Shown here one piece after another: positions 1,962-56,003 of a DNA stretch of 64,000 nucleotides. The DNA is from Calcarisporiella thermophila CBS 279.70 (lineage: Eukaryota > Fungi > Calcarisporiellomycota), in assembly GCF_041956535.1 (NCBI RefSeq), contig NW_027192203.1, forward strand, positions 617,406-681,405. The letters are read 5' to 3'. Within the stretch, counting starts at the first letter, position 1. Every line of letters starts with the position of its first letter. Position numbers and translations under genes: made by a program. Under the pieces are notes generated by a model that worked only from the letters and a program-made list of their open reading frames with translations, was not told the DNA's origin and searched no databases.

Positions 1962-3766
1962 TTAATGATAATTATTTTGTCTCATCTGTCGATACCTCTC
2001 CTCTACGCGTAGAGCAGCTCCATCGTCCGTGCTCTCGTCTCCCGTGAAATACCCGCCCCAATCTCGGCTATACATGCTTGACTCGGCCTGCCCTCGGTTT
2101 ATGCTCGAGTCGGAGAACTCGCCATACACGGCCGACACCGTCTGTTCCTCGTGGGTGCCCAACTCGGATGGCGCTTCGAAGGTGCTTGAGTCCGGCCCTT
2201 GGCCATACACCGCCGAGGACACCGCGTCGTCATAGGGTGTGTAGTTGTCCTCGTAGAGGTAGAGCTCCTCCTCGAGGTTGGGGAGCACAAACGAAGGCTG
2301 ATTCGGGGTGGAGAGATGAGTGGGCGCCTCGGAGCTCGCCTCATCCACAAACCCGGTTAGGTAGAGCTGTGGCGCGGGAGGCAAGGAGGGAAGGCGCGGG
2401 GCCACGGAAGGATCGATGTTCGAGGAGCTGCGGGCGGAGCCGTAGTGTTCCTCTTGGAGATGGCGGGGGGCGAGGGGCGGAGTGGGGGGTATCTCGGGAT
2501 AGGAATATGGCGAGGAGGCCAGGGCAGCCGCCCTTAAGTTGGCCGACTGGGGTATGGGTTGTGATATGAGGGGTGTGATGTAGTTGTTTTGAGCGTGGGC
2601 GAATTCCGCCTTTCCGGCACGCGAGTACAAGAACAGCTTCACCATGCCCCCCACGTGCAGGGCCACGAGCATGGTGACGTAGATCCAGGCACGGCGATAG
2701 TCCACCAGCAGACAGAGCCCGTAGATGGAGAGGGGGGCATATTGGAGCAGAAACACGAGGATGTACGAGGAGAGGCGCATGGACAGCATGCGCACACAAT
2801 CGCTGTTGTAGTGGGCCGGGTTCGCGTGAAGAGTCCTGTTTTTGGAGGCGTTCGACTCTTTGGTGGGGATATGCATGGCCCTGAACACTTGGCTCATATT
2901 CGTTTTGGGCGAGTAGAGCTGGTTGACCACCTTGATGTAGCTGACGGTGATGACCACCAACACGAAATAAACCAGCACCACAGAGGCGGCGTTGGAAAGG
3001 GTCCCACCCGAGAAACGGTTATCAACAAAACACCTAAACAAAAAATAGGCATCAGCATTCGATCCAAGGGAGAAGTGGATTGAAAGGGAGTGAGGGGTGA
3101 GAGAGGGGGGAAATGGAGCCTCCGCACAACTTACCAAAACATATCATCCCCATATCCCTTTGTTACCGCCGAGGTGACGGTCAACAAAATGGGCACTAGC
3201 AGTGCCAGCGGCACAATACCGCAGTCCCCATATCCAAGTACCACTTTGCTCTGATGGCATAATCTCAGATAGATCGTCAGAGCAAAGCATCCCACCAGCG
3301 CTAAGCCAGCATTGATAAAGAAGTAGATGATGGCACCTACGACACCACACTCCGGCTGCGCCATCACATGATCTCGACTCATGGCAGAGAGGAGGTTGGC
3401 GATGGTGAACAGGGCAGGCACCAACTCGAACACAGCCATATAGGCTGGGATGAAGCTGCGCCCATGGCTTCGCTTCCGATTCGTTTTCACCGCCCAATAG
3501 ATGAAGTATCCCGCGACGAGAACATTTGCGAAGCCGGAGATAATTCCAGCGGCAAAGACAGCACGACTGCCAGCGGTATCATGGGCGCTGATGCCGCCGT
3601 TGGTCGTGGCGGGGGGAAAAAAGAAGGTCCTGCCTGTGCTTGGAGGGGCGGAAGAGGAGGAGGAGGAGGGGGGCTGAGGGGAATCAGCAGCGGCCGCAGT
3701 CGTAAAGACGAGTGTGAGGCACCAGTGTAGCGTTAGAGACAATAAGGGTATACTCCGTGCTTGCAT
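1962..3766 (-). CDS. 7-TM G-protein-coupled receptor (Git3/cAMP-receptor-like) with signal peptide and long acidic/Pro-rich C-tail, 2 exons
   Basis: Intron 3034-3134 (GTAAGT...TTTAG) joins ORFs 3131..3766 and 1962..3137 to give YGDDMFWCF (ECL2 WC motif). Cys at the top of TM3 (ECGVVG), seven hydrophobic segments, TM6 SYILVFLLQYAP. Confidence 0.75.
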
Positions 3767-4745
3767 ATGTTTTCGGCGTAAAACACAATGATAAATAGAT
3801 AAATATAACTATCGCTCACTTCGACTCCGGGGGGGGGGATGATTCCTAATGCTTTTCGCCTAATGCGTGAGTGTGTACGTTGCTGGGAAAGCTTCTAGTA
3901 TGAATGTCGCTATGCTTCGAGATAAATAGAGGATGGATGCAAAGAGGAGAACAGACGATTTGGAAAATAAATAGAGCTGACTAGAGAGGATGCTAAGCGT
4001 TGGAGAGAGAAAGAGAGAGAGAAGGGGAAAGTCAGTGGTGATGGATGGGATCGAGGAAGAGATGAAAGTAGGCCTGATAGTGGGGGTTCATTAAAGGGGA
4101 GAGAGAGATGATACGCCTAGCAGGCATCAAGATCATAAGGAGCGGAAAGAAAATAAGGGGCGGGATCGGACCAACGCAATGGAAAAACGCAATAGAAAAA
4201 GCACAAAAAGCACAGGAATACCACCTTGCGTAGCGGAAACAACGGAGTTGATGTGGCAAAACATAATTTCAAAAATTGTGAAAGTTCGCCAATCGATCAC
4301 GATCCTCAAATGAGATTGCTGTGACTTCACAAAGAGCTTGCTCGGCTCGCACAAGAAGATATTAATCCAAGAATACGGTGTTTTATTCATTGATTTCTTT
4401 TGCAAATAATAAATTAATCGGTGAGAGCGGGCGTCAGTGGTCAGAGGGAAGGTAGACAGGGTGGGGCGGGGGAGATCATCAAAAAAGTGCTTGCGAACAT
4501 ATATGAAATAAAAATAGAGGCAGATAGGACAGAATAGAAAAATAGAATAAAAGTGAGATAAAAAGCCTGAAATCAGAAAATGAAATAGATAAAATAAAAT
4601 AGAATAGAATAGAATAAAATAATAGATAGGATTGGATATTGTATAGCACGGTGAGACAGGGAAAAGGGGAAAATGAAGTGAAATATGACATGTGTGATTG
4701 AATGAGTTAACGCTCCCGCCAGCAGCTTAACGGAAATGAAGGGCC

Positions 4746-11127: not shown

Positions 11128-12843
11128 TTATAAGATCTTCTCTCGACAACCCCGGATAGCCTCCATCGTCTTCTCCCCCACCAGAATCTCGCTCACCCCA
11201 TGGCCGGCCGGATTCCTTTGCGACGGATGCATGGAGTCCTCGCCCTCTTCTCCGTCGTCGCTCTCGTCCTCCGCACCCCGGATCTCCGAGAGGTGTTGCA
11301 GCCGAGCTGCGCTGGCCTCTCCGGTCAAGAAGTCGCAGAGCCGCGCCTGCTCTCTCGCGGGCAGCAGCAGGATCAGATCCGCCAGCAGCGGGTCTAAATA
11401 CGCGGGCAACACCACTCGACTTTCGGGTTGGAAGTGAAACGTATTGGGGGGCAGGCCAGTCCGCGCATGGGTCTCCAGCCAGTGCCAGTGCTCCACCTGC
11501 AGGGTGTTGAGAAGGCGAAGAGTGTATTCCACCGAATCCTCCGGCAACAGCACGCCTTGCTGCGTCATCTTCAAGATGGCATCCAGGGTGGCCAGAAAAT
11601 GGCTGCGGAGCGGAAAGCAGATCTGGTTGTGGCGCTCGATGCATACCGCACGGCTCTCCTCCACAAAATATTCGGTTTGGGCCATCCATTCTTCGAGCGC
11701 TCTGCAGCGTTCGTCGGGAGCGAGGTCCGGGTGGGAGCAGCGGTCAAAGTGAATTTGGGCCGCGAGGGGCTTGGGAAAATGGGAGGGCGCCGGCGAAAGT
11801 GGACGGTTCAACGGTTTGGAGGGCACGGCGGGCGCGGCAGTGGGGGAATCCCCTTTGCTGGGGAGCCCTTCCGGGCCACTCGCAAAGCTCTGAGACCCAG
11901 CTCGCTCATCCCATCTGGGAGACAGCTCCTGGACGTCCTCCTTGCCCTGGCCTTCGGATGAATCGCTTGGGCTATTGATCTGTGATTGCACGCAATCCTG
12001 CAACTCCTTCTTGCGAACGCTGCGCCTATGCTGCAGTTTCTGCATCTTCGCTCGCCGTTTTGAGTTTGATTTCCGCACCGACCCATCACGGGATGGCGAC
12101 GCTTGGCTTCTCGAGGACATCTCCCTGAAGCGCTTGTGCAGTCCTGGGTAGGCGGCAACCAAGCGCTCCCTCATCCTACTGTTCCCATCCTGCCTGCATT
12201 TGTCCATCAGCCAGCGCCAGATTTCTTCCACCCCCTCCGCAAAGCCAATCTCATAGCACACCGATAGCACGCCCACCCCGGTGCTCAAATCGTCCTGCAA
12301 CTCGGCATCCCAAGTTTTGGTGTAGATGAGCTTGAGAGCCGTATGGAAGTAGATCATGTCCTCCCTGGTCACCGTTTCCGGCACACGGACGACAATATGT
12401 TTTGGCCTGATCGGGTGCGGCCGCGAAGTCCCAATCTCAAGCAACTGGCGTCGGAAGAACTCGGATTGGCACAGGATAAGCGAGTGCAGGCGGAGCTGCG
12501 CAGGCAGTCCGCTAAGCTCTGCCATCCGCCCGCCATCGTCGAACGTCAGCCGCACATCACTGTAGGGGAGCCCGGCCTCCCAGAGCAATTCGCCTACGTT
12601 CGGGTAGACCAGGGCATCTCCGCTGGCCGCAAGGGGATAGTCGGTGTAGGGTGCGCAGGGCTCCTCTTGGTCCTGGTCACACACGGCAGAGAGGCCGTCC
12701 ACGACAAGGGAACTGCGGGGAAGCGGGGAGGAGCAGCTGGGGCAGATGATCCTCCCATCATCGGAGGGGCATGACGAGTCTGTCGATTCGAACGAGGTTC
12801 GTCCAGCGACATCCGGGAGATGCTTCTGCTGCATTGCGTCCAT
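11128..12843 (-). CDS. BTB/POZ-domain protein of unknown function
   Basis: Intronless 571 aa; YSDVRLTF...LRLHSLILCQSEFFRRQL...LKLIYT matches the BTB core pattern. Confidence 0.7.
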   Translation of the reverse strand: MDAMQQKHLPDVAGRTSFESTDSSCPSDDGRIICPSCSSPLPRSSLVVDGLSAVCDQDQEEPCAPYTDYPLAASGDALVYPNVGELLWEAGLPYSDVRLTFDDGGRMAELSGLPAQLRLHSLILCQSEFFRRQLLEIGTSRPHPIRPKHIVVRVPETVTREDMIYFHTALKLIYTKTWDAELQDDLSTGVGVLSVCYEIGFAEGVEEIWRWLMDKCRQDGNSRMRERLVAAYPGLHKRFREMSSRSQASPSRDGSVRKSNSKRRAKMQKLQHRRSVRKKELQDCVQSQINSPSDSSEGQGKEDVQELSPRWDERAGSQSFASGPEGLPSKGDSPTAAPAVPSKPLNRPLSPAPSHFPKPLAAQIHFDRCSHPDLAPDERCRALEEWMAQTEYFVEESRAVCIERHNQICFPLRSHFLATLDAILKMTQQGVLLPEDSVEYTLRLLNTLQVEHWHWLETHARTGLPPNTFHFQPESRVVLPAYLDPLLADLILLLPAREQARLCDFLTGEASAARLQHLSEIRGAEDESDDGEEGEDSMHPSQRNPAGHGVSEILVGEKTMEAIRGCREKIL

Positions 12844-26334: not shown

Positions 26335-28736
26335 CTAATATTGCCGCACCCGCCTCAACACAAACCGTACATCGGTGGCATCTCCGCGTAGGCCGGCCGT
26401 GGATCCTCCGGAGCCAGTGGAGTGCAGTGAGGCGGCATCCCCATTCCTCTTCACCGCCGCAGCGGGGTCCTGTGTCAGCGCCCACAGGTGGTCCGCAGGA
26501 TTCAGCGCTATCTCGCTCGACGCTCCCCCCACCAGCATGGTGAGGCGATAGGCCAATGGTTCGCCCGTGGTCTGCAGGATATGGAATTTTTCTAGCGCCT
26601 GCGCGGTGGCTTCCGCAACGGTAGCCTCTCCGCCGACCGCCATCATCTTGTCAATCCTCTCTCCACTCTGTGTTTTCTTCTTCCTCTCCCCATTCACGGG
26701 CGCCCCCGGCATGTCCTCCGGGAAAAGCGAAACGCGCATGATCATGGTGCCGACCTGGGGCTTGAACTTCTTGTTCAGCAGGAACTTCACTACATTGTCG
26801 TCGCCGTTGAGCTCGGAGCGGCGTTTCGTGCTGACGCCGAGCCTCTTCACCTCGACAACACCATCCTGTTGAGGGATGCGGCGCAGATGCGTGGTGAGCG
26901 ATTTGTCGTTCGAAAGGTGGGTGGTGAGGGATTGAAAAATAGCAAGCGGAAGGTCCGTGGGCGCCAAATTAAACGATTCTAAGCAACCAACGATGTAAAA
27001 AAAAAAAAAATACAAGTTTCATGAGGATACTAGCCTTGCTAGGTTGAACCTCCTCCCCCCTTTGAAAGGGCTGTTATTCGCTTACCTCCGTTAGGCCCTT
27101 GCGCAGAAAGATAGTACTCCACCGTGCTTGACTCGACCTGCTCCACGTGGAACCGCGACAGAGCTTGTTTTACCAGCTCTTCCGCCGTGGTCTGAGGATT
27201 GACAAGCACCGTCTTAAAGAGGGCGCCTAGTTGCACGTTCCCGGCAAAGATCCTCAGCACACTCAAGCTCGTGGTGACATCCCCGCTTCCAGACATGGCT
27301 GAGGAGGGTAGCGAGTCGACCGAGGCCTTGTAAGAGTCGAGCGATCCACTTGAGGAATGCGACCGATAAGAGTGGCCGTCCTCGTGTTGCCCAGACCCGT
27401 TATTGCGACGGCGAATGGAGGCCATAGAGAAAAATGGGGGCGGATGCTGCAGCATCTTTTTCCGAAAACCTCGCGAGAACAGGCGCAGAAACATTCCCTC
27501 CTTCTTCTCTTTTGCAGGGAGTTCCTTGCGGATAGAGCCGCTCTCGGATTTGCGAGGAGTGGGCGGTAGTGGGCGATTCGCGATTTCATCGGGAAGTTGA
27601 AAGGGTGCGGGTGCGTCTGCGCTTTGAGGGAGCACATCGGACTCCTCTGACTCTGCACCGTTAGTGGAGGGAGCGACACCATTAATCTCTGCAGAGGCTG
27701 CAGCAAGCTCGTCCACCTGGGGAAGAGGATCGGTGATGAACTCGGCGATAAGCGGCTCGGGGATGTTCAGCTCGGACACCAGTATATACGGCTTTGCCAA
27801 ATCTATTCTCGTGGCCCGTTTTTGCTCCACCTCCTCCCCGTCGTCAGGCTCATCCATCATCTTACCGGAGTGGACGGAATGAGATTCCGAGCTGGATTTT
27901 GGCACGGTCTCTTCAGTCATTGTATCCTCCGGCTCATCCTCGTCATCCTCGTCCGACTCTTCGCTCTCGCAGGCAACAATGGGTCGCCTAAATGAGACTC
28001 CTTTGGTTTTTGACTTTTGAGGGAGCTCTTCTTGGGCAATCGCACGTAGCTCCTCTACTAATCGCTCAAGAAACTTTGAAAAAATACGCGTATATAGTTT
28101 AGCATGGGCGGATTATACAAGGCCATAGATGGGGGAACAAAATCACGTACTTCAACATTTTTATGTTTGTTTAGCCGGGCCAATCTTTCATGAGGTGTCT
28201 AGGAAAAATAGACACGGTTAATGTCGAAGGGTTAATTTATGCTGAGAGGGCTCAAAAATTACTTCAACATTCTCGGCGGGGATGTATCCGACCTCTGACG
28301 TCCGTAGGACCTTCACCAACCACCAGTACGTGTTCGTATCATCCAATAGTGACAAGAGGTCGTTTCGTTCCACGCTCGCTTGCCCATCCACAGTGGCTAT
28401 AAAATCATGTAATGCATACACATGGTCAAAGTCAATATCCTCATCGGGGATTGATGGGGAGGAGAGATAGTCCTCGTCGTCCACGAAATCATCAGAACTC
28501 GTGTCATCATCATCAAGCTCCTCATCCATGTAATCTCCGTCTACCAGCTCCATTTCCTCAATGCCTTCAAAGATGACCTACTCATCAGGAAAACGGAATG
28601 TCTGGGTCATTACGAAATAAGCATTGAAAGCCAGCACGGGAGCTAATACCTCTTCGTCCTGCTCAATGTATTCATCCTCAACCTCAGGAATGGTAGTAGC
28701 TGTGGGACGTGGTCTTGCGATGTGGATATCGGCCAT
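26335..28736 (-). CDS. Tea4/Bud14-like SH3 polarity protein with PP1-docking motif and two Ras-association-like domains, multi-exon
   Basis: SPSIPDEDIDFDHVYALHDFIATVDGQA...LLDDTNTYWWLV...GYIPAENVE/TPHERLARLNKHKN; KGVSF near 27990-28005; LRIFAGNV...FKTVLV...ALSRFHV (RA); second MRVSL...ALEKFHI repeat. Confidence 0.82.
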
Positions 28737-31357: not shown

Positions 31358-33619
31358 ATGCTCCAGTTAGTGCACCACGAACAACAACAGCGAAAGCCTA
31401 AAGATAGCGCCCACATCAAGCAGAAATTTGGGCGGAAATTCGCCTTCCCTCATGTGTATGTCAAACATGTAGAACATGTTAACCCCGAGGAAGAAGAAGA
31501 TTGGCAACTGAAGACTCCCCCCAAAACCCCCGAGCTACCCCCTGGTGGGGAGGAGGAACTGCCCAGCAAAGAATTCATCGTCGCAGTAAAGGTTCAGGAT
31601 AAAGAGAGAGAGGTAATTGATAATAAAAAGGAGGAATTGAAACTGGAGTTTGTTCCCGCACTGGTCGCTTTTTTGGACCGAGACAAAACCGTCATTTCTT
31701 CTCTATCCAAAGAGTTCGAGAAGTTGGCCAATGAAGAGATCCACAACCAGCACCGTTGGCGCCTACAGACAGCGGCACGTCAGCTTGCCACGCTACTCAG
31801 TCCAACCGAAGAGTTTGATGCTGGAAGAATCAGGAATATTGTGTTCAACATAGGGCGAGAACACGCGGCTCACCGAATCATTGAAATTACAGGCCACTTT
31901 TTGGACTCCATAAAGAGAGAGGAGAGAATTGAGGGTGAAATGGAGTTTGAGCTCGCCAAAGAGGCCTACTGGGATAGACCAAGCGATATGATGAGTTTAT
32001 TGAGAGTGCATCGAGCGGCATGCATCATCGAACATGGAGTAGGCGAAGTATGGACAAAGGGGTGGGTTGTTGGCGTGGGGGCCAGTGAACTCTGTCAAGA
32101 GGACCGCACACAGGCTGCTCAAAACTTACAAAGGCTCCGTGTCACTCTCAACCGTCTCTCTCCACTGATCCAAAGGCTTTCTGCTGAAAGTGCTCATAAG
32201 CTTCTTCTTCACACAATGGAAGCCGAACCCGTGACCTCCATTGGAGGGACCCCTCTCTACGTAGATTCTGTGCACATACAAACTCAAGTGTATAAGGCAT
32301 TGAGCGATTTCGTTAAAAACGAGGAGAGGGCGATGACTCTGGACTTTGCACACGCAGTTGCTCAGATGGGGGCAGTGCGCAAGCTTATCCATGAAAATGA
32401 GCTGTGCTACGCTTGGGAGAAAGCGGGACATGCGGTGAAAAAGTTTATTCTGAATCCGGATCCGATCTTGAGGGCAAAGGCTGTTTCTCGCTTGAAGCAA
32501 GTAATTGAGGCTCTTCCTTTAGTGAAGAATATAGCTCTTGCAGAGGAGAAAATATCTTCTCTTGTTCCGTCCAATCGAGGGAAGATGCGGGAGGGCGGTA
32601 TACGCGCAGTACAAAGCGAAATCAATTCCGTAGTTGAAGCGCTGGTGACCTCGATCCAAAAGACAGGAAAATTACAGTACAACTATTGTCCGCTTACACT
32701 TCTGACCGCGAGCAGCGAAGCTGGCATCATTGCTGACTCATGGACCCAACTTTGCGATTCCATTGAGAATTTATTTGCCTATGCGGTGCAAGCCAGAGAT
32801 AACCGAGGAGTGAGGCAAACTCTAGGGGACGCCAAGGCGCAAGTAATGGACCTTCTCCACTCTGTAAGCCTTGCATTCACAAGCCCTAGCTTGAAAGGCC
32901 AGCCGTGCAGCATCTCCTATGCAGCGGTGGGCGCATTGTACCAGCTTTTGAACGAGGCCGATCACTTTATCCCAGGGGGCGAGAACTATCGCGCTGCAGC
33001 TGAAGGCATACGTAGCGCAAAACTTATGCTTGAATCCCCTACGGAGGGCTGGGCAGGCCGTGATCGAAGTAGAATCTTTAATGTCGAGAGGGTCGAGAAA
33101 AGTCTTATCGAGGCAACAGATGACTTGCGTATTGCTGTATCGAAGAGAGACCGCGGTGTGGCCATCCAATGTGCCGCAGAAGCTGCTCTAGCGTGCAGGG
33201 ATATCACTCATTCGACCTTGCTCACCCTTTCCCACCACCCTTCCCTTGGCTCCGATCACGACACACTGAATGCAGTGCACGGATGCCCTCAAAAAACTAA
33301 GGTGGAGAATATACGTCTACTTGAAGAGGTTCAATCTGCTTTGGACGCGGTGTTCACCTGGCTCCAGGAGGAGCCCTCGCACCCCATTCGTGCCAAATCG
33401 GTCGAACATTCTGCCACCTGGACGTCGAGGGCATGCCAGCGTTGGTCGCGACAATTTAAATCCATTGGCGCAGAAAAGACGTGGGGTTTAAAGCAAGTAG
33501 GGGTTGTAAGAGTGGATAGAATGCAGGAAAACTACAACGAGAGGGGTTGGAGTTTTATTGTAGGGTGCAAGGAGAAGCGAGAAAGTGAAGTGCGGACACT
33601 TACTGCTACCGCTTTTTGA
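31358..33619 (+). CDS. Intronless 753-aa helical-bundle protein resembling the central talin rod
   Basis: Long amphipathic helices with LP/PG-type bundle junctions (EALPLVKNIALA; YQLLNEADHFIPGGENYRAAAEGIRSAKLMLESP), collinear with my recollection of talin R4-R7. No FERM or I/LWEQ domain. Confidence 0.6.
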   Translation: MLQLVHHEQQQRKPKDSAHIKQKFGRKFAFPHVYVKHVEHVNPEEEEDWQLKTPPKTPELPPGGEEELPSKEFIVAVKVQDKEREVIDNKKEELKLEFVPALVAFLDRDKTVISSLSKEFEKLANEEIHNQHRWRLQTAARQLATLLSPTEEFDAGRIRNIVFNIGREHAAHRIIEITGHFLDSIKREERIEGEMEFELAKEAYWDRPSDMMSLLRVHRAACIIEHGVGEVWTKGWVVGVGASELCQEDRTQAAQNLQRLRVTLNRLSPLIQRLSAESAHKLLLHTMEAEPVTSIGGTPLYVDSVHIQTQVYKALSDFVKNEERAMTLDFAHAVAQMGAVRKLIHENELCYAWEKAGHAVKKFILNPDPILRAKAVSRLKQVIEALPLVKNIALAEEKISSLVPSNRGKMREGGIRAVQSEINSVVEALVTSIQKTGKLQYNYCPLTLLTASSEAGIIADSWTQLCDSIENLFAYAVQARDNRGVRQTLGDAKAQVMDLLHSVSLAFTSPSLKGQPCSISYAAVGALYQLLNEADHFIPGGENYRAAAEGIRSAKLMLESPTEGWAGRDRSRIFNVERVEKSLIEATDDLRIAVSKRDRGVAIQCAAEAALACRDITHSTLLTLSHHPSLGSDHDTLNAVHGCPQKTKVENIRLLEEVQSALDAVFTWLQEEPSHPIRAKSVEHSATWTSRACQRWSRQFKSIGAEKTWGLKQVGVVRVDRMQENYNERGWSFIVGCKEKRESEVRTLTATAF

Positions 33620-34153: not shown

Positions 34154-35639
34154 CTAGTGTTGCTTGTTTGCTTCCACCTCCATACCGCCCTCGAGCACGG
34201 CAACGCGCATATGCGACAACAGGTTTCGAGCCGCGTTGGAGTGGTCGTAGGTGCCTCCGTTGAAAGCGGTGGTCATGTCCTTTCCGATCCCGCTGAGAAT
34301 AAGAGAACGACCTCCGGGATGCTCGTCAATAAAGGCGGCCACGTCGTGGACAACTCCTTCAACCGCGATCAGGGCCCGGTTTTCCTTCTCACATAAACGC
34401 TTCACTAAACGGGGAGAGAGCAGTCAGAGCCACCGGAGGAGGAATGGAATGGAAAGACGGGCTTACACTCTTCAAACGTGATGGTGGGGAGAGTATTGAT
34501 CGGGATGCCCCATGAGAGTTTGGCTCGCTTAATATCCAGCTTTTTCTGCATCATGTTGATGAGGCCGCGCTGCACCTCATTCTCGGGGAATTTTTTGAGA
34601 TTATAAGCGAGGCCAAGGTAGGACATGGCTTTAATAAACCATTTGGTTGGATCGTATTGGTAGAAGCGGATGGCATTGCGGTAGTCATTCGGGAACTCGT
34701 GGTGAACTATGAATATGAAAACAAAAAAGAAAACAGGTGCATTAGTGGGGAACAAAACAGCGCACGGTAAAGCAAATGCGAAAAGAGGATGGTGGCAATC
34801 AACAAATAAAACACAAAGGTATATAGTTAAAGAGAGCACTCACAGTTGTGGTATCCTTCGCCCATGGTCATGATGGCCGTGATGAAATGGTCACGGGGAG
34901 TCCGGCGGTCATCGTACGAGGCCTCGCCCAAGTAATGGGCCAAACTATTGACACAGAAAGTGGCATGATGGACGAAACATAACCGGGCGGTCCCAGCGTA
35001 GAAGTATCCACCCTTCCAGTCCCCCCACCCTAAGCCCGCCACCAGCGTCGGGAAGAGATAGCCCATGCCAATGGCAAAAAGGGGGTAGTACTTGTGTTGA
35101 ATTCGTATGATGGGATTGGCGTCGAGGTCGGTGACGTCTGCGTAACCGATTTTGATGCCTTTGCCGCGATTCACCAGCATCCAGCCAATATGAGACCACA
35201 GCAGGCCACGGTGGGCACTATAGGGATCCTTGTCCGTGTCGGTATAGCGGTGGTGGGCGCGATGTCCGCGCGACCACCACCGGATCGAGCCCTGCACCGC
35301 TCCTGCCCCGGCCAGGGCAAGGTACCACTCCAGGATCGGGTGGGCGTTATAGGCCCGATGGGCCCAGAGCCGGTGGTATCCGCCCGTGATGCCAAGGGCC
35401 GTGATGAAATAGTAGACTACGGCCCATATCAATGTCTTCCTCTGGAGCTCCACCGTCAGCAAACCATAGATGGACGCTAAAGGGGTTCCTATAAGGATCA
35501 CCACGTGCACCCAGTTGACATACTTATACCAGTTGCTAAATGTGATAGGCCCATCAAAGAGAGGCTCCAGTTTCTCCTTCTTCCCGCTGCTGGAGGGAAC
35601 AGAGGTCGTGGTGGTAGTGGAAGTTATCGTTGTCGACAT
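34154..35639 (-). CDS. OLE1: Delta-9 fatty acid (stearoyl-CoA) desaturase fused to cytochrome b5, 3 exons
   Basis: His boxes HRLWAH, HRAHH and HNFHH (spliced across intron about 34707-34843); C-terminal HPGG cytochrome b5 motif. Confidence 0.96.
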
Positions 35640-36387
35640 TTCGTTTTCGTTTTAACCAATTCTCGCCAATCTGTTTTTTTTTTCCTGAATTCCAATGAGG
35701 AAAATAAAACGCGCAGATAGTATATGTATAAAAATGAAGTGGTCGATTTCCTAGTTTATAGCACACAATAGATATATTTATTGATGTATTAGTGTAGTGA
35801 AGGGGAACAGATGTAGCGGAGGAGAGGAGAGAAGAGAAGAGGAGGAGAGGGGGGGAAAATAAAGCAAAAATGATACGTGCCCGTGAGAAGCTACCGCGGA
35901 AGAGGAGAAGGGGCGTGTTTAGAAAATGGAAAAAAGAAGCAAGAACGAGGATAGCTTCGTAGATTTGTACTCTTTTGCCCCAAAACAAGTGGTAGATCCG
36001 AATTATTATCGCCCATCATCGCTGCCTAGCTGGCCCAGTAAATTGCCCACCCTTGGCCCTAGGGGACTGTAATCAGGAGCCGACCCTGCAGTCGGCCCTA
36101 CCCCCAATTTGTCCTTTGGTATTCACGGTCATAAAATGTTGGGGGATGGCGAGATAGGCACTTTGACATTACAATAAAATATTATACTGCTCGGACGATT
36201 GTGACGCCTCCCAACAAATCATCCGCCGCGGCCCTGCCCTCTTCTCGATAAATCTTGGAATTTTAGAACTCCCCAACATTCAAATTTAGAGTTAAACGCG
36301 GATGAGAACATCCATTTCCATTTTGGACCATTTGGATCATGCATTAAAATCATGCCATCTTTATTTTGCGACCTACAGCCTCTCTCT

Positions 36388-45050: not shown

Positions 45051-46124
45051 TTAAAGGGTCGCAGTATAATGAATGGGATAATCTAAAGAGAAGTTTCCGG
45101 ATTAGCTTTCAGATTCGGTATCAATGCCAAAGACAAGCAAATATTGAATAAACTTACGATCGGAATAGTCGTCATAGGTTTTTCCCTTAATTTCGTATGG
45201 CTTCATCTTTACCTTCAACACAGTTTGTTTGCTTCCAGACTTAACTCCTCCCTTGGCGATCAGCACATGGTCAAGGATAGCACTGGCTCCATTGGGGTCT
45301 CTTTCGTTTGCGATTGTGTTCGTCTTCACATCATAACTCAGCGGCCACCCATCAAAAGTATCGGCGCCCTTTGCCCCAAGAATGCTCAACATATCGTTGT
45401 ACTCGCTCGAGGATTTATCCACATTCATATCCCCGATGACAAATACAGGTTCATTGGCAGGCAACGTGTCGACGAATTGGCGAATCTCGCGGAATTGAGT
45501 GGCGCGTACACTCTTCTCACTTCCACTGCAGCCACCGTCGTCCGCCTGCGTGTGGGTTCCGATCACGTGGAGCGGCTGGTTGGTCCCCATATCAAGTCTC
45601 ACGTAAGCAAATCCTTTGTTAGCCGTGTTATCAGTACCGCAGCCTTTGGCGAACACATGCTGCCTCTTCTCAACAATCCGATGCTTCGATGCGATGAACA
45701 CGCCCCCGCTAGCTGGACACAGACTGCACCAGCTTCCAGTCGTCGCATTCCAGTCCTTCTTCGACCGACCCGTCACAGGAGTCTGATATGGGTATCCATA
45801 CTTGGCCAAGTTCCCTTGCAGGGGATCCGTCACAGACTGCTCGAATGCCTCCTGGAAAACTAGCACATCGTGATCCTTGATAAAGTCGGCGGGAGCTCCG
45901 ATTGCTTCTGCGCGTAAGTTCTGTCCCCAGTTCGGATATATGTTTTTGTAGAAAAGAAAGGTGTTGAAGGAGAGAATACTTAGTGATTTGGAGGTGTCTA
46001 GGCTCTTGTTGGAGGCTTTCAGTTTCTGGAGGCCGCGCTTTCGAGCGGTGAGGCCATCGTGGGGAAAGGCTGCGAGCGCGAAACCAGTGAGAGTCAGGAG
46101 AGCAGAAAAGAGTGAAAGTTTCAT
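45051..46124 (-). CDS. Secreted bacterial-type neutral sphingomyelinase C (EEP superfamily; Bacillus SMase / Staphylococcus beta-toxin family), 2 exons
   Basis: Signal peptide; YPNWGQ..RA..I, DVLVFQEAF, YPYQTPVTGRS, FAKGCGTD..ANKGFAY, HVIGTHTQA, GDMNV, LDHV. Intron 45083-45157 restores DYSDHYPI; TAA at 45051-45053. Confidence 0.93.
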
Positions 46125-46220
46125 TGCTTGAACGGGTCTGGCCAAAAAGCAGGGGACGGAAGGAAAAAAGAGAGGAGGGAGTGAAGGAGAGTATGGGGGA
46201 GCATAATAACAAGTTGGCTT

Positions 46221-46227
46221 ATTTATA
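46221..46227 (-). promoter_or_regulatory. TATA box of the sphingomyelinase gene
   Basis: TATAAAT on the minus strand about 100 bp upstream of the ATG at 46124, followed by a pyrimidine-rich leader. Confidence 0.5.
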
Positions 46228-46709
46228 GCCACCCCGCAATATAAAGATTAGATTAGAGTTTAGCTCTGTGATATAGAATATGGTTAGGGATCCTGAGGAA
46301 GAGGAGATTTACAGATCGCGCTAACCATGACGATGCTTTCCACAGTATCTGCATGCATGAGGCGGTGGCCTCATCCTGATTTTTGGTCCTTCTTCCCCAC
46401 CTTATGCTTCATAACATGTTGGCAACAAGAGATGATACAAGCACCGTTCGAACAGTGCCTTTACTTATTCTTAGAAGATTATAACCTCCTTCTAATTAAG
46501 ATTGTCTTGCCATTGCGAAAACCTTGTCCTCTCACATGACAAAAAGGGAACAGTTTATTAGATGCTAACTTGTTATATCCCAAATTAAACGGAGTCGGTC
46601 TTTGACCCGCGGCGCAGCATCATAATTCCATGAGAAGATTTGTGACTGAACGCGTAATATGTAGGACATAGAGGCCAGCGCACTTTTATTACTTTCACGA
46701 GGCAGCATA

Positions 46710-52617: not shown

Positions 52618-53435
52618 CGAGGTGACGGTTGATCCGGATGGGTTTCTGGAGAATCCGTCGGCATACTCTCGCTTAAAGTTTTTTTGTTATATTTAAGAAT
52701 CTGTTAATTTCACTTCTCGAATTTTATTCAATACACTTTTTGAAGTTAGTTTACTAGCCAGTTCATGTGTGAATAGGACCCCAAAGAGGAAAATTCTCAA
52801 GTTAGTATTCGTATCAGAGTAATTTTTGTTCAGCTTATTTTATGCTACTCGACATGAGGCAGCATAATTTGTGTCGCGGGTAAAAAAAGTATGCAGGAGA
52901 AGAATGGTGGTTAAAAATCGGGTTAATTAATCCTCCCCAATTTTCGTTCTTAAGTTTCTCGTTTTGTATTTTGATGCTAGCGGGATTGAGTGAGAGGATT
53001 TTATCATCTTTGCTCCTGGCCTTCGATTGCACTTGCATTTCCTCTACTCTCCATTCGTGTGGTCTACATTGATTGGTCGTCCTCCCTGGTTGAGATCTCC
53101 TTCATCTCTTGATTTTCAAAAGCGCGTGTTTGTATTTGGCCTTTTGCTTTATTCGCAAGCCCATCGTCGACAAAGGACATTACTACTTTTGTCCCGCAAA
53201 TCCTAAAAACGCGAAATTTCTTGTTGATACTTCACATACGTGTTGAGAGGTTTGTATTTCCTTTTTCTACATTAGGCCATGTTTTGTTTTCGTTTCCTAA
53301 TCCGATCAGACGAATGTTTGCCACGAATCTATACCATTGTTGTGATTTTTCTCACCTGCCATTTATATTTTGAAAATTTAGTTACTATAGCATCATATTG
53401 AAGTATCTTGCGTAGCTTGCAAACGTATATATCCT

Positions 53436-56003
53436 ATGCCACTGCCAGCAGTTGAGCGAGCTTCCCCACAACAGCAAAAGAAGTCAATCAGACCAACAGC
53501 CGCAGCACAACCATCCCCAAAAGGCAATGGCCATTCACTCACTAGCAAAAGTTCAGTATCACCAGAACTCGATTCGCGTCTGCAAGCATTAGACGCGGCC
53601 CTTTTTCCTTCCGATGAAGAGATTCAGCAAGCTGTCGACAGCCCCGAATTACTGTTGGGTGTAGTTGAACGGGGTGCTCAAGTCGTCGATCGATGGGTTG
53701 AAGTTGGATCGCAGCTTTTAGCAGAAGATGAGCACTATGACCGCGCCAAGTCGTTGGCTTTTCAAAGTTTGGATGCTGCCGGTCACAGGCTTGGATCCCT
53801 TGCTTCCTGTTTAGAGCGGCTTAAAGAACTAGAAAAACAACTGCCGCGTCCACCTCGAGATGCAGAAACCACCAGAGTGCTGCGCATGACTATGAAGGCC
53901 ATCAGCGACTGGAATGAACTTATTGAGTTGCTTGAGGATATCAAGCGCCGTCAAATCATGGACACAATGGATAGCGTGCAGAGTGAACTTGACGATTTGC
54001 GCACCATACTGTTCCAATTCCAGGAGCAACGTCAGGCTGCCATTGCAGAAGGACGGCCCCATATACTCCCACCATCGCAATCGCTGGATATACTGCCGTC
54101 GCATTGGGGCCAGGGAAGCGAAGGAGAGGGAGATGCAGGCGACTCCTGGCTCAAGTTGATTGATGGCAAGATGAAACCGCTCTACGAGGCCCTTGAGCGT
54201 CTTCATACCAGACTGACCACCGACGCGAACCAGCAAGTTCTGGATCCAGATGGAGTTTTGCGAAAACGCTACGTGGCTATCCAGTCGCAATGGGAGACAG
54301 CCACGGACGAATTCAAGGAAATTCAGGATGAATTGCAGGATGAACTCAAAGACGGTCGGTGGGTTTCGTTTTTCTTGCAGGTCGCCGGGCAAGTTGACAC
54401 CATGATGAATACGCTCGAGGAAGCCCTTGGACAGAGTCGGAAAGTCATCGAGCTATTGCAACATGAAAAAACCGGTGGACATTCACCTGGCAAACTCACC
54501 TTGCCCCTAACGCCTTCCTCCAAAATTCGCTCTCGACCTGTGTCACTTCCCCCCGGCTTATTAGATTCCATCGATCCGGATTCTATACAAACATTTATCA
54601 AAGGATTTGATGCAAAGCGAAAATACTACATATCCCCTGTGGAGCGCATGATTCCTATGCTTGGCAACAGCCTCGCCTCTAAAGGTCCTGCCATAGCAGA
54701 CAGCGAATTAAGTCGGCGGCATACGTTGATGAAGCAGCGGTGGCAACAGTTAAAGCAAGAACTGGAGCAGGCCCATGCGCAGCTCGTGGATCTTACGCAA
54801 CCAAAGCGCGATGAGCCATCCAACGTTTCATCCCCTAAAACACCCACAGTACGAAATAATAGCAACCCTAGCAAAATACGCCTAGGGACTGCAACTAGCT
54901 CACGACCCCGCGCATCCTCCCCTTCCCCCTCGGAGCCCGCTGCTGGTACTTCGGCAAGGCGCTATCTATCTCCTCCATCCAACCGTCGCACAAGCTTCCT
55001 GGGTCAAAACACCCAGTCGAAGGGCAACTCTCCCCATTCCTCCTCGGAATTGCGTCCTTCGTCGCGCGCATCCACCGTAAGCACCACCAGTATTACATCT
55101 TCGCCTTCCGCGTTACGGTCATCCCGGCGCTTATCCAGCGCTTCGACCCCAGGTGGCCTAATGCAGACCCGCCCTGCTTGGAACTCGTCTACCAAAGTTG
55201 AGCCGCTAACCCAGGCGAGCTCAATCAATCGACCGATATCACCCCACCCCCCTAGATCTCGCACGCCTGTGCCAGCCACCACTTCACGTTCCGGTAGGTC
55301 ATCCGCTATGTCGCGGTCACGTGCCCCATCTGTACCGCCGTCCCTAAATACACGCGCGCGTCCTGTATCACAGCTTGGATATCATGAAGCTTCACAGCAG
55401 GTGTTAAGCCCAAAGCCTCGACCAGAGCAGCCTGATGCTCCTTCGATGATACCACGCCCTTCTTCCTCCTTGCCTTTCGCTCAGCAGTCTCTACTTAGAC
55501 CCTCTACTCCAACACGCCCGCAATCGCCTGCCCGCAGTCAAATTCCTCGCCCAACGACGCCATCGACTCCGAAGACGGTGGGTGCAAATCGGCCCGTGAC
55601 GCCTTCAAGGGCTAAATCTCCAGCAGTTGGTGTCGGGCGCTCCCAAATCCCTCGGCCAACCACACCCTCGACCCCTGGTAGTGTGCACCAATACCAGCAG
55701 CCTCCTCCGGTCTATCGGCCCCAACGCGACGACCCGCTCGATTCTGAAGTAGCGCGAATTCTCGCCCATATTCCTCTGCCCGTACCCTGTAATCGTATAG
55801 ACCCCGGTCGCTATCAATTTGGCGATGCCGGACGGAGCTATCTCTGTAGGCTGGTGACCTCCCATCCTAGAGGCAAACCTCCCCAGCAGAAAGTTTTAGT
55901 GCGAGTGGGTGGAGGCTGGCAGGATTTGGAGATATTTTTACTGGAGCATGCCCAATCATTGCTGAGTGATGCTATTGCTCGAAATTTCACCATTGGGTTC
56001 TAA
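53436..56003 (+). CDS. Kar9-like helical region plus Ser/Pro-rich SxIP region plus C-terminal GAR/Gas2 microtubule-binding domain
   Basis: RWVSFFLQVAGQVDTMM and FDAKRKYY (Kar9-like); DPLDSEVARI...GRYQFGD...KVLVRVGGGWQDLEIFL (GAR). Confidence 0.8.
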   Translation: MPLPAVERASPQQQKKSIRPTAAAQPSPKGNGHSLTSKSSVSPELDSRLQALDAALFPSDEEIQQAVDSPELLLGVVERGAQVVDRWVEVGSQLLAEDEHYDRAKSLAFQSLDAAGHRLGSLASCLERLKELEKQLPRPPRDAETTRVLRMTMKAISDWNELIELLEDIKRRQIMDTMDSVQSELDDLRTILFQFQEQRQAAIAEGRPHILPPSQSLDILPSHWGQGSEGEGDAGDSWLKLIDGKMKPLYEALERLHTRLTTDANQQVLDPDGVLRKRYVAIQSQWETATDEFKEIQDELQDELKDGRWVSFFLQVAGQVDTMMNTLEEALGQSRKVIELLQHEKTGGHSPGKLTLPLTPSSKIRSRPVSLPPGLLDSIDPDSIQTFIKGFDAKRKYYISPVERMIPMLGNSLASKGPAIADSELSRRHTLMKQRWQQLKQELEQAHAQLVDLTQPKRDEPSNVSSPKTPTVRNNSNPSKIRLGTATSSRPRASSPSPSEPAAGTSARRYLSPPSNRRTSFLGQNTQSKGNSPHSSSELRPSSRASTVSTTSITSSPSALRSSRRLSSASTPGGLMQTRPAWNSSTKVEPLTQASSINRPISPHPPRSRTPVPATTSRSGRSSAMSRSRAPSVPPSLNTRARPVSQLGYHEASQQVLSPKPRPEQPDAPSMIPRPSSSLPFAQQSLLRPSTPTRPQSPARSQIPRPTTPSTPKTVGANRPVTPSRAKSPAVGVGRSQIPRPTTPSTPGSVHQYQQPPPVYRPQRDDPLDSEVARILAHIPLPVPCNRIDPGRYQFGDAGRSYLCRLVTSHPRGKPPQQKVLVRVGGGWQDLEIFLLEHAQSLLSDAIARNFTIGF

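What the first reader, a model, noticed from the sequence alone, without database searches (positions are those of the whole stretch)
31358..33619. Head-less, tail-less mini-talin: isolated talin rod bundles in a fungus
The segment at about 32490-33240 aligns collinearly, by eye, with human talin-1 as I recall it. LKQVIEALPLVKNIALA ~ LNRCVSCLPGQRDVDNA; VQSEINSVVEAL ~ AQSRLNEAAAGL; DLLHSVSLAFTSP ~ KLLLAAKALSTDP; ALYQLLNEADHFIPGGENYRAAAEGIRSAKLMLESP ~ SINQLITMCTQQAPGQKECDNALRELETVRELLENP; KSLIEATDDL ~ KVLGEAMTGI. QAAQNLQ upstream resembles R4. Talin is an integrin-adhesome mechanosensor absent from Dikarya. A stand-alone R4-R7-like fragment without FERM or actin-binding tail would be a repurposed relic of the adhesome.
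Basis: partly seen in the sequence, partly recalled or inferred. Interest (0 to 1): 0.78.

Follow-up and report, generated by a model that had tools for sequence, protein, structure and literature searches.

The report
Possible talin rod relic in fungus
This fungal gene is intact and has no detectable relatives; about 190 of its 753 residues weakly resemble one helical bundle of the cell-adhesion protein talin, so it is possibly a leftover piece of talin that would now act as a cytoplasmic scaffold, but the resemblance is too weak to prove that.

Summary
The ORF is real: 753 aa, single exon, singleton cluster, no homologue among 1.84 billion representatives. Pfam, PDB sequence search and an unguided fold search give no significant talin hit. 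Against a profile of 20 real talin rods, residues 373-563 align collinearly with end-R5, R6 and start-R7: 20% identity, score 81.7 versus 45.8±5.4 for shuffles, P about 1e-4. An ESM Atlas structure search independently ranked a talin cluster first for residues 240-398, below its bar, but not for 395-625. Against: the flanks carry no signal, forced-alignment landmarks are at chance level, reversed talins often score as high, and even a talin-guided AlphaFold model reaches only pLDDT 55. No FERM or I/LWEQ sequence lies nearby. Verdict: talin ancestry about 55%, supported for roughly one bundle, not R4-R7. Headless talin pieces (TLNRD1) and a fungal talin-type bundle (Sla2 Rend) are already known. 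The scan holds no earlier look-alike.

The parts
31358..33619 (+). Single-exon gene, 753 aa, orphan (P0001)
   Evidence: ORF and translation; codon-position bias; held in NCBI/UniRef as a cluster of 1; only self-hit in three protein searches
31358..31642 (+). Residues 1-95: Pro/Glu-rich, likely disordered N-terminal arm with KTPPKTP (fits the recalled class I SH3-ligand pattern) and TPPK (recalled CDK consensus)
   Evidence: Composition and regex scan; patterns recalled, short and common; function inferred
31643..32077 (+). Residues 96-240: amphipathic helical region, unassigned
   Evidence: Hydrophobic moments; no talin signal above block shuffles (23 of 100 reach it); not modelled
32078..32521 (+). 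Residues 241-388: predicted helical bundle A (would sit at R4/R5 if the register holds)
   Evidence: Helices in both models; Atlas top structural row is a talin cluster for 240-398, TM 0.28/0.35, under bar; no sequence signal for 241-372 (91)
32474..33046 (+). Residues 373-563: the only stretch with talin-like sequence signal (end R5, R6, first helix of R7)
   Evidence: Profile score 81.7, 0 of 300 shuffles, Gumbel P about 1e-4 (48); 176 pairs, 36 identical to talin L072, 28 of 34 hydrophobic columns hydrophobic; boundaries from PDB chains
32522..32977 (+). Residues 389-540: predicted five-helix bundle B, R6-like
   Evidence: Talin-guided model folds it as a talin-type bundle, Z 11.6 to R6 (2l10), rmsd 3.5 over 141; circular because the alignment was talin
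32978..33472 (+). Residues 541-705: predicted helical bundle C; five helices; could be R7 helices 1-3 plus two more, or an R5-like continuous bundle
   Evidence: Helices; segments 571-690 fit best at an R5 offset; not above block shuffles
33473..33616 (+). Residues 706-753: short C-terminal extension; no I/LWEQ domain

Best explanation
The gene is intact and encodes a 753-residue protein predicted to be soluble, with two or three helical bundles behind a proline-rich arm; its middle bundle is possibly a degenerate descendant of talin rod domain R6, and the protein would likely act as a cytoplasmic adaptor rather than a force sensor. Shown: the intact ORF, its orphan status, no talin head or tail in the window, and a weak collinear match of residues 373-563 to talin. 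Inferred: (1) a middle stretch of an ancestral talin gene outlived the head and tail, as happened independently for TLNRD1; (2) freed from the need to unfold under load, it diverged to about 20% identity; (3) with no membrane-binding head and no actin-binding tail it cannot be stretched between membrane and actin, so it would use the folded bundle surfaces to bind helical motifs of partners by helix addition, as folded talin bundles do, while the N-terminal proline motif might recruit an SH3 protein. I put talin ancestry at about 0.55 and the adaptor role, given ancestry, at about 0.8.
For: Profile alignment 373-563 scores 81.7 against 45.8±5.4; 0 of 300 residue shuffles, 0 of 200 block shuffles at each of four block sizes and 0 of 300 reversed-block shuffles reach it; the reversed protein scores 46.5. 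Among 131 ORFs of >=200 aa from the window and fetched loci, P0001 has the largest excess over its own shuffles (34.5); seven of the next eight carry the search motif by construction, one comes from talin locus L001, and the best other is 17.9. The offset stays at 792-796 across residues 361-570, and 5 of 17 single talins give this register as their best pairwise alignment. An R4-R8 profile ranks this ORF first of 1560 window pieces, though at E 1.7. Independent of my talin set, the ESM Atlas structure search put a Talin_IBS2B/TLN1-like_RS/VBS cluster first for residues 240-398. Precedent: TLNRD1, a single-exon stand-alone R7R8 at 22% identity (bioRxiv 10.1101/2020.05.19.103606, passages). Folded-state LD-motif binding by helix addition: PMC8697387, passages. 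No transmembrane stretch (max Kyte-Doolittle 19-mer 0.97).
Against: Reversed talin windows reach the raw score in 13 of 20 and the z in 1 of 20. In a composition-corrected forward score P0001 has only -2.6 to 4.9 bits, and 8 to 30 of 40 reversed talin windows reach it. Whole-talin HMM P 0.021 versus 0.062 reversed; hhalign probability 5% and 2%. Flanks show no signal; forced-alignment landmarks are at chance; 12 of 17 talins prefer other registers. The Atlas hit is under its bar, falls where sequence gives no signal, and is absent for 395-625 (0 of 10 rows). The talin-guided model is poor (pLDDT 54.6, pTM 0.35). No binding partner, expression or localisation was tested.
Confidence: 0.45

Rival explanations
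1. A lineage-specific, fast-evolving helical-bundle protein unrelated to talin; the match is what alanine/leucine-rich amphipathic helices with proline-glycine turns give against a 1500-column repeat profile. It would still act as a scaffold of unknown partners.
For: No Pfam, PDB or database homologue; helical decoys score as high; chance-level landmarks; no signal in the flanks; a single chance nine-residue motif already gives an excess of 24-32 versus 34.5 here; unguided model matches only generic helices.
Against: The signal depends on direction and on helix order in this protein; it is the top outlier among 131 ORFs; an independent structure search also pointed to talin.
Confidence: 0.4
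2. It descends from another member of the talin-like bundle superfamily that fungi keep or once had (Sla2/End4 Rend, vinculin/alpha-catenin), or from a different talin register (R2-R5), not from R5-R7.
For: Sla2 Rend is the top VIA match of the guided model (Z 12.3, tied with TLNRD1 and R6); a second register at offsets about 480-555 recurs for segments in 91-150, 241-300 and 571-690 and in several pairwise alignments.
Against: The whole-region score in that register is reached by 11 of 100 block shuffles; the model was steered by talin rows; Sla2 and vinculin sequences were not compared directly.
Confidence: 0.08
3. It is still a force-responsive talin-like linker, anchored by a new N-terminal arm and C-terminal extension, exposing cryptic helices under load.
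For: R6 is a rod bundle of a mechanosensitive protein; Rend shows that a fungal talin-type bundle unfolds at 15 pN in a force circuit (PMC11476202, passages).
Against: No FERM or I/LWEQ anchor; no match to the strictest recalled vinculin-binding-site pattern; the vinculin/alpha-catenin group is scored 0 in Zoopagomycota, Mucoromycota and Dikarya (PMC10406608 supplement row), which matters only if the host belongs there.
Confidence: 0.05
4. The ORF is one exon of a longer talin gene, or a decaying remnant without function.
For: Expression untested; GC3 of 0.51 is lower than in most neighbouring genes.
Against: 753 codons without a stop and with codon-position bias; only 534 bp of 32% GC before the convergent desaturase gene and no talin-like sequence in the 2.3 kb upstream.
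Confidence: 0.02

Closest known systems
Talin (rod domains R5-R7; Pfam PF21896, PF21865, PF08913; PDB 2l7n, 2l10)
   Same: Collinear weak match of 373-563 to end-R5/R6/start-R7; string of amphipathic helices of similar length.
   Different: 753 aa versus about 2500; no FERM head, no I/LWEQ tail; no Pfam talin hit; about 20% identity over only 176 pairs; at most two helices where R8 would be.
TLNRD1/MESDC1 (PDB 6xz4)
   Same: Stand-alone, head-less and tail-less, single-exon gene at about 22% identity to part of the talin rod (bioRxiv 10.1101/2020.05.19.103606, passages).
   Different: TLNRD1 is R7R8, found in choanoflagellates and animals, conserved, dimeric and actin-bundling; P0001 centres on R6, lacks an intact R8, is an orphan, and its ancestry is unproven. 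No orthology implied.
Sla2/End4/HIP1R Rend domain (PDB 9hdd)
   Same: A talin-type five-helix rod bundle in a fungal protein, conserved in structure but not sequence (PMC11476202, passages); top VIA match of the guided model.
   Different: Rend sits between ANTH and THATCH anchors and resembles R12; P0001 has neither anchor.
Talins of zoosporic fungi (chytrids, Orpinomyces C1A)
   Same: Fungal talins without integrins exist (PMC5042518 and bioRxiv 10.1101/2020.06.12.142943, passages) and would be the natural source.
   Different: The Orpinomyces protein keeps recognisable talin-middle, VBS and I/LWEQ domains; none is detectable here. No named fungal talin was in my comparison set.

Membership tests
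Talin | N-terminal FERM head (F0-F3) | tested here: not met
   No Pfam FERM hit; FERM profile from 8 talins best E 1.3 on an unrelated piece of the window
Talin | C-terminal I/LWEQ (THATCH) actin-binding domain and dimerisation helix | tested here: not met
   ORF stops 534 bp before the next gene
Talin | Thirteen rod bundles, about 2500 aa | tested here: not met
   753 aa; two to three predicted bundles
Talin rod-derived protein | Significant sequence homology to rod bundles | tested here: inconclusive
   P about 1e-4 against own shuffles, but matched by helical decoys; no Pfam hit; hhalign 2-5%
Talin rod-derived protein | Talin five-helix bundle topology | tested here: inconclusive
   Unguided model unusable (pLDDT 37); guided model gives Z 11-12 but is circular and low-confidence; Atlas row under bar, absent in 25
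Talin rod-derived protein | Cryptic vinculin-binding helices | tested here: inconclusive
   No PF08913 hit; strict recalled pattern absent, one loose hit at residue 217 outside the matched stretch
TLNRD1 | R7R8 nine-helix unit with four-helix bundle inserted in a five-helix bundle | tested here: not met
   Signal centres on R6; only five helices follow it
TLNRD1 | Actin bundling, antiparallel dimer, LD-motif binding | not testable with these tools
   Needs biochemistry
Sla2/HIP1R | ANTH plus THATCH domains | tested here: not met
   No Pfam hit of any kind for the whole protein; none of these families among the segment hits

The most novel reading that the evidence does not exclude
A fungus from a lineage that lost talin and vinculin kept a three-bundle middle piece of the talin rod (about R5-R7) as its own single-exon gene: a second, independent TLNRD1-like birth, and a molecular fossil of the adhesome repurposed as a cortical actin or polarity adaptor in walled hyphal cells.
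Probability: 0.3. Interest if true: 0.7.

Novelty: new variant of a known kind. Interest (0 to 1): 0.4.

Why it matters
Talin is reported in most chytrids and not in Dikarya, so it was lost somewhere in between. A surviving, divergent rod fragment would show that the loss went through fragmentation and reuse, and would give a natural test of what folded talin bundles do without force, integrin or vinculin. If the resemblance is chance, this is an ordinary orphan helical protein and a useful caution: by-eye collinear landmarks between amphipathic bundles were largely reproduced by shuffled sequences.

Tried and rejected
No homologue found: word-indexed search, near lengths (1 of 7994 candidates, itself); longer proteins with region 370-630 (0 of 2219 at E<=10); 1.84 billion representatives (self only); JGI metagenomes (72 pattern matches, 0 confirmed). 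Shorter proteins were not searched. No sequencing run was listed for the locus, which says nothing on expression. No genome is held, so the search for full-length talin, vinculin and integrin in this organism and dN/dS could not be done. ESM Atlas feature search gave no usable hit twice. The unguided AlphaFold model (pLDDT 37) gave no Foldseek match at E<=0.001; talin R1 appeared at rank 44, E 2.9, and talin was not listed among the 50 VIA rows. The guided model's talin hits are not counted as independent evidence because the alignment was talin and no control fold was available. The first whole-length HMM (fragments included, effective number 2.15) was uninformative. Sliding HMMER windows peaked at P 6e-4 among 15 windows. 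The 0 of 100 result for 373-563 is not counted, since that segment was chosen as the best one. One decoy ORF (53391-56003) was read on the wrong strand; those two values are not used. Talin scans of viral contigs found nothing. Literature searches for talin with Mucoromycota/Zoopagomycota/chytrid, talin with Mucorales and truncated talin-like proteins in early-diverging fungi listed no paper on a fungal talin fragment; only listings were seen, and bioRxiv supplements, which may tabulate talin by fungal species, are closed. No complex prediction was run: no partner was indicated.

Full report
The gene. Window 31358-33619 (+) is one open frame of 753 codons. Its bases show a coding pattern (GC 0.59, 0.40, 0.51 at the three codon positions) and the other five frames hold 15-40 stops each. 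The same protein is held in NCBI and UniRef as a cluster of one. It has no transmembrane stretch. Residues 1-95 are Pro/Glu-rich, and both structure predictions show only helices from about 242 to 703. Neighbours are an SH3-RA gene upstream on the other strand and a desaturase-cytochrome b5 gene downstream, convergent. With Whi5-like, Sey1 and sirohaem synthase genes this points to a fungus. That it is a non-Dikarya, zygomycete-like fungus is my impression from recalled gene similarities and was not tested; no genome is held.

Blind searches. Nothing but the protein itself was found among 7994 word-sharing candidates, 1.84 billion representatives, 2219 longer candidates at E<=10 or JGI metagenomes. 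Pfam gave 0 families for the whole protein and no talin family for 10 segments. PDB sequences gave no talin. A single-sequence AlphaFold model of 240-671 had pLDDT 37 and matched generic helices. The one blind pointer to talin came from the ESM Atlas: for residues 240-680 the top structural row was a cluster carrying Talin_IBS2B, TLN1-like_RS and VBS, aligned over 240-398 at TM 0.28/0.35, under the tool's bar. For 395-625 none of 10 rows was talin.

A direct test with real talins. A short motif scan of metagenomes returned 122 loci. Three long ORFs were scanned with Pfam and all three were talin. A divergent one retrieved 8 more talins. Twenty rod regions were aligned: 12 from loci, chosen as long and non-redundant, and the 8 proteins. 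PDB chains fixed the domain limits. A local profile alignment placed residues 373-563 on the last helix of R5, all of R6 and the first helix of R7, with score 81.7. Residue shuffles gave 45.8±5.4 (0 of 300 reach it), block shuffles 49-52 (0 of 200 at each of four sizes), and the reversed protein 46.5; Gumbel P was 1e-4 for residue shuffles and 3e-4 to 2e-3 for block shuffles. The alignment has 176 pairs, 36 identical to talin L072, and 28 of 34 conserved hydrophobic columns are hydrophobic, in an optimised alignment. P0001 had the largest excess over its own shuffles among 131 ORFs, and 5 of 17 single talins gave the same register.

Results against. Reversed talin rods, the hardest helical decoys, reach the raw score in 13 of 20 windows and the z of 6.9 in 1 of 20. 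With composition correction P0001 has -2.6 to 4.9 bits over four settings; it beats all of its own residue shuffles in three settings, but 8, 17, 22 and 30 of 40 reversed talin windows reach it. hhalign gives probabilities of 5% and 2%. A forced alignment of 240-705 looks convincing by eye, yet shuffles match as many conserved columns. The flanks 91-240, 241-372 and 564-705 do not exceed block shuffles (23, 99 and 28 of 100 reach them), so R4 and the rest of R7 are unsupported. The region where the Atlas saw talin is the one without sequence signal. A chance nine-residue motif alone yields an excess of 24-32. With 18 talin rows supplied, AlphaFold reached only pLDDT 54.6 and pTM 0.35; bundle 389-540 then matched Sla2 Rend, TLNRD1 and talin R6, R1 and R5 at Z 11-12 and talin led Foldseek at E 0.09. 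That shows compatibility, not ancestry.

Head and tail. Eight full talins gave no tblastn hit in the window at E<=1. FERM and I/LWEQ profiles found nothing among 1560 six-frame pieces. Only 534 bp of 32% GC separate the stop from the next gene, and the 2.3 kb upstream is 39% GC with no talin-like piece. The gene is therefore not an exon of a nearby full talin, as far as these searches reach.

How it likely works. Weighing a P near 1e-4 for a hypothesis chosen from all proteins a reader recalls, heavier tails for helical proteins, and one weak independent structural pointer, I put talin ancestry near 0.55. This number is a judgement, not a computed value. If ancestral, the protein cannot work as talin does: it lacks both anchors, and the vinculin/alpha-catenin group is scored absent from Zoopagomycota, Mucoromycota and Dikarya (PMC10406608, one supplement row and its header; the file was cut when stored and 'talin' did not occur in it). 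Folded talin bundles bind LD-type helices by helix addition (PMC8697387, passages), so an adaptor role is the likeliest reuse. That the second actin-binding site spans R4-R8 is recalled; without intact R4 or R8 I do not expect actin bundling. If not ancestral, it is an orphan helical scaffold. Every functional step is inferred.

Relation to what is known. It is not a talin: head, tail and length fail. It would be a second case of the TLNRD1 kind, a single-exon stand-alone rod piece (bioRxiv 10.1101/2020.05.19.103606, passages), but from a different bundle. Single-exon genes are common in this window, so gene structure is no evidence of retroposition. Talin is kept in most chytrids and not found in Dikarya (bioRxiv 10.1101/2020.06.12.142943, passages; PMC5042518, passages). 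Apparently truncated talins were noted in amoebozoan data (bioRxiv 10.1101/2020.04.29.069435, passages). Sla2/End4 carries a talin-type bundle even in yeast (PMC11476202, passages). PMC12686525 (passages) gave background only. Three literature searches listed no report of a fungal talin fragment. Earlier scan notes hold no look-alike; one mentions a fungal-lineage talin with a degenerate rod and another a helical module that only loosely resembled talin; both are unchecked leads.

Verdict. A real orphan gene with a borderline, direction- and order-specific resemblance to talin R6. Worth an orthologue-based profile test; not established. Interest 0.4; new variant of a known kind if the ancestry holds.

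Noticed in passing
window 45102-46247 (-): Sphingomyelinase C-like gene with a signal-peptide-like start; best PDB matches are bacterial beta-hemolysin and sphingomyelinase C (E 1e-64 to 1e-58, 7 sequences at E<=1e-5). Candidate horizontal transfer from bacteria; no tree made.
   Followed up: partly
window about 26335-28600 (-): SH3 plus Ras-association gene, recalled as Bud14/Tea4-like, transcribed divergently from the orphan, which has a class I SH3-ligand-like motif at residues 52-58. No evidence of a link.
   Followed up: no
window 53391-56003 (+): 870-aa ORF with helical N-terminal part and C-terminal GAS2 domain (E 1e-10); spectraplakin/Kar9-like layout is a recalled resemblance.
   Followed up: no
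window 11128-12843 (-): 571-aa single-exon ORF with no Pfam hit at E<=0.01; part of it looks BTB-like by eye.
   Followed up: no
window 1962-3808 (-): Two ORF pieces of a multi-pass membrane protein, by eye a GPCR-like receptor; no Pfam hit for either piece.
   Followed up: no
L121:270-7859: An uninterrupted full-length talin, 52% identical to talin L072, fills a contig filed under a Planctomycetaceae MAG; most likely eukaryotic contamination of that bin.
   Followed up: partly
L050, P0002-P0006: Unnamed divergent full-architecture talins, about 27-33% identical to L072 over the rod, probably from microbial eukaryotes; lineage not determined.
   Followed up: no
window 34154-35651 (-): Fatty-acid desaturase with C-terminal cytochrome b5 (fungal Ole1 layout), convergent with the orphan; with Whi5-like, Sey1 and Met1 genes it supports a fungal host.
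   Followed up: partly
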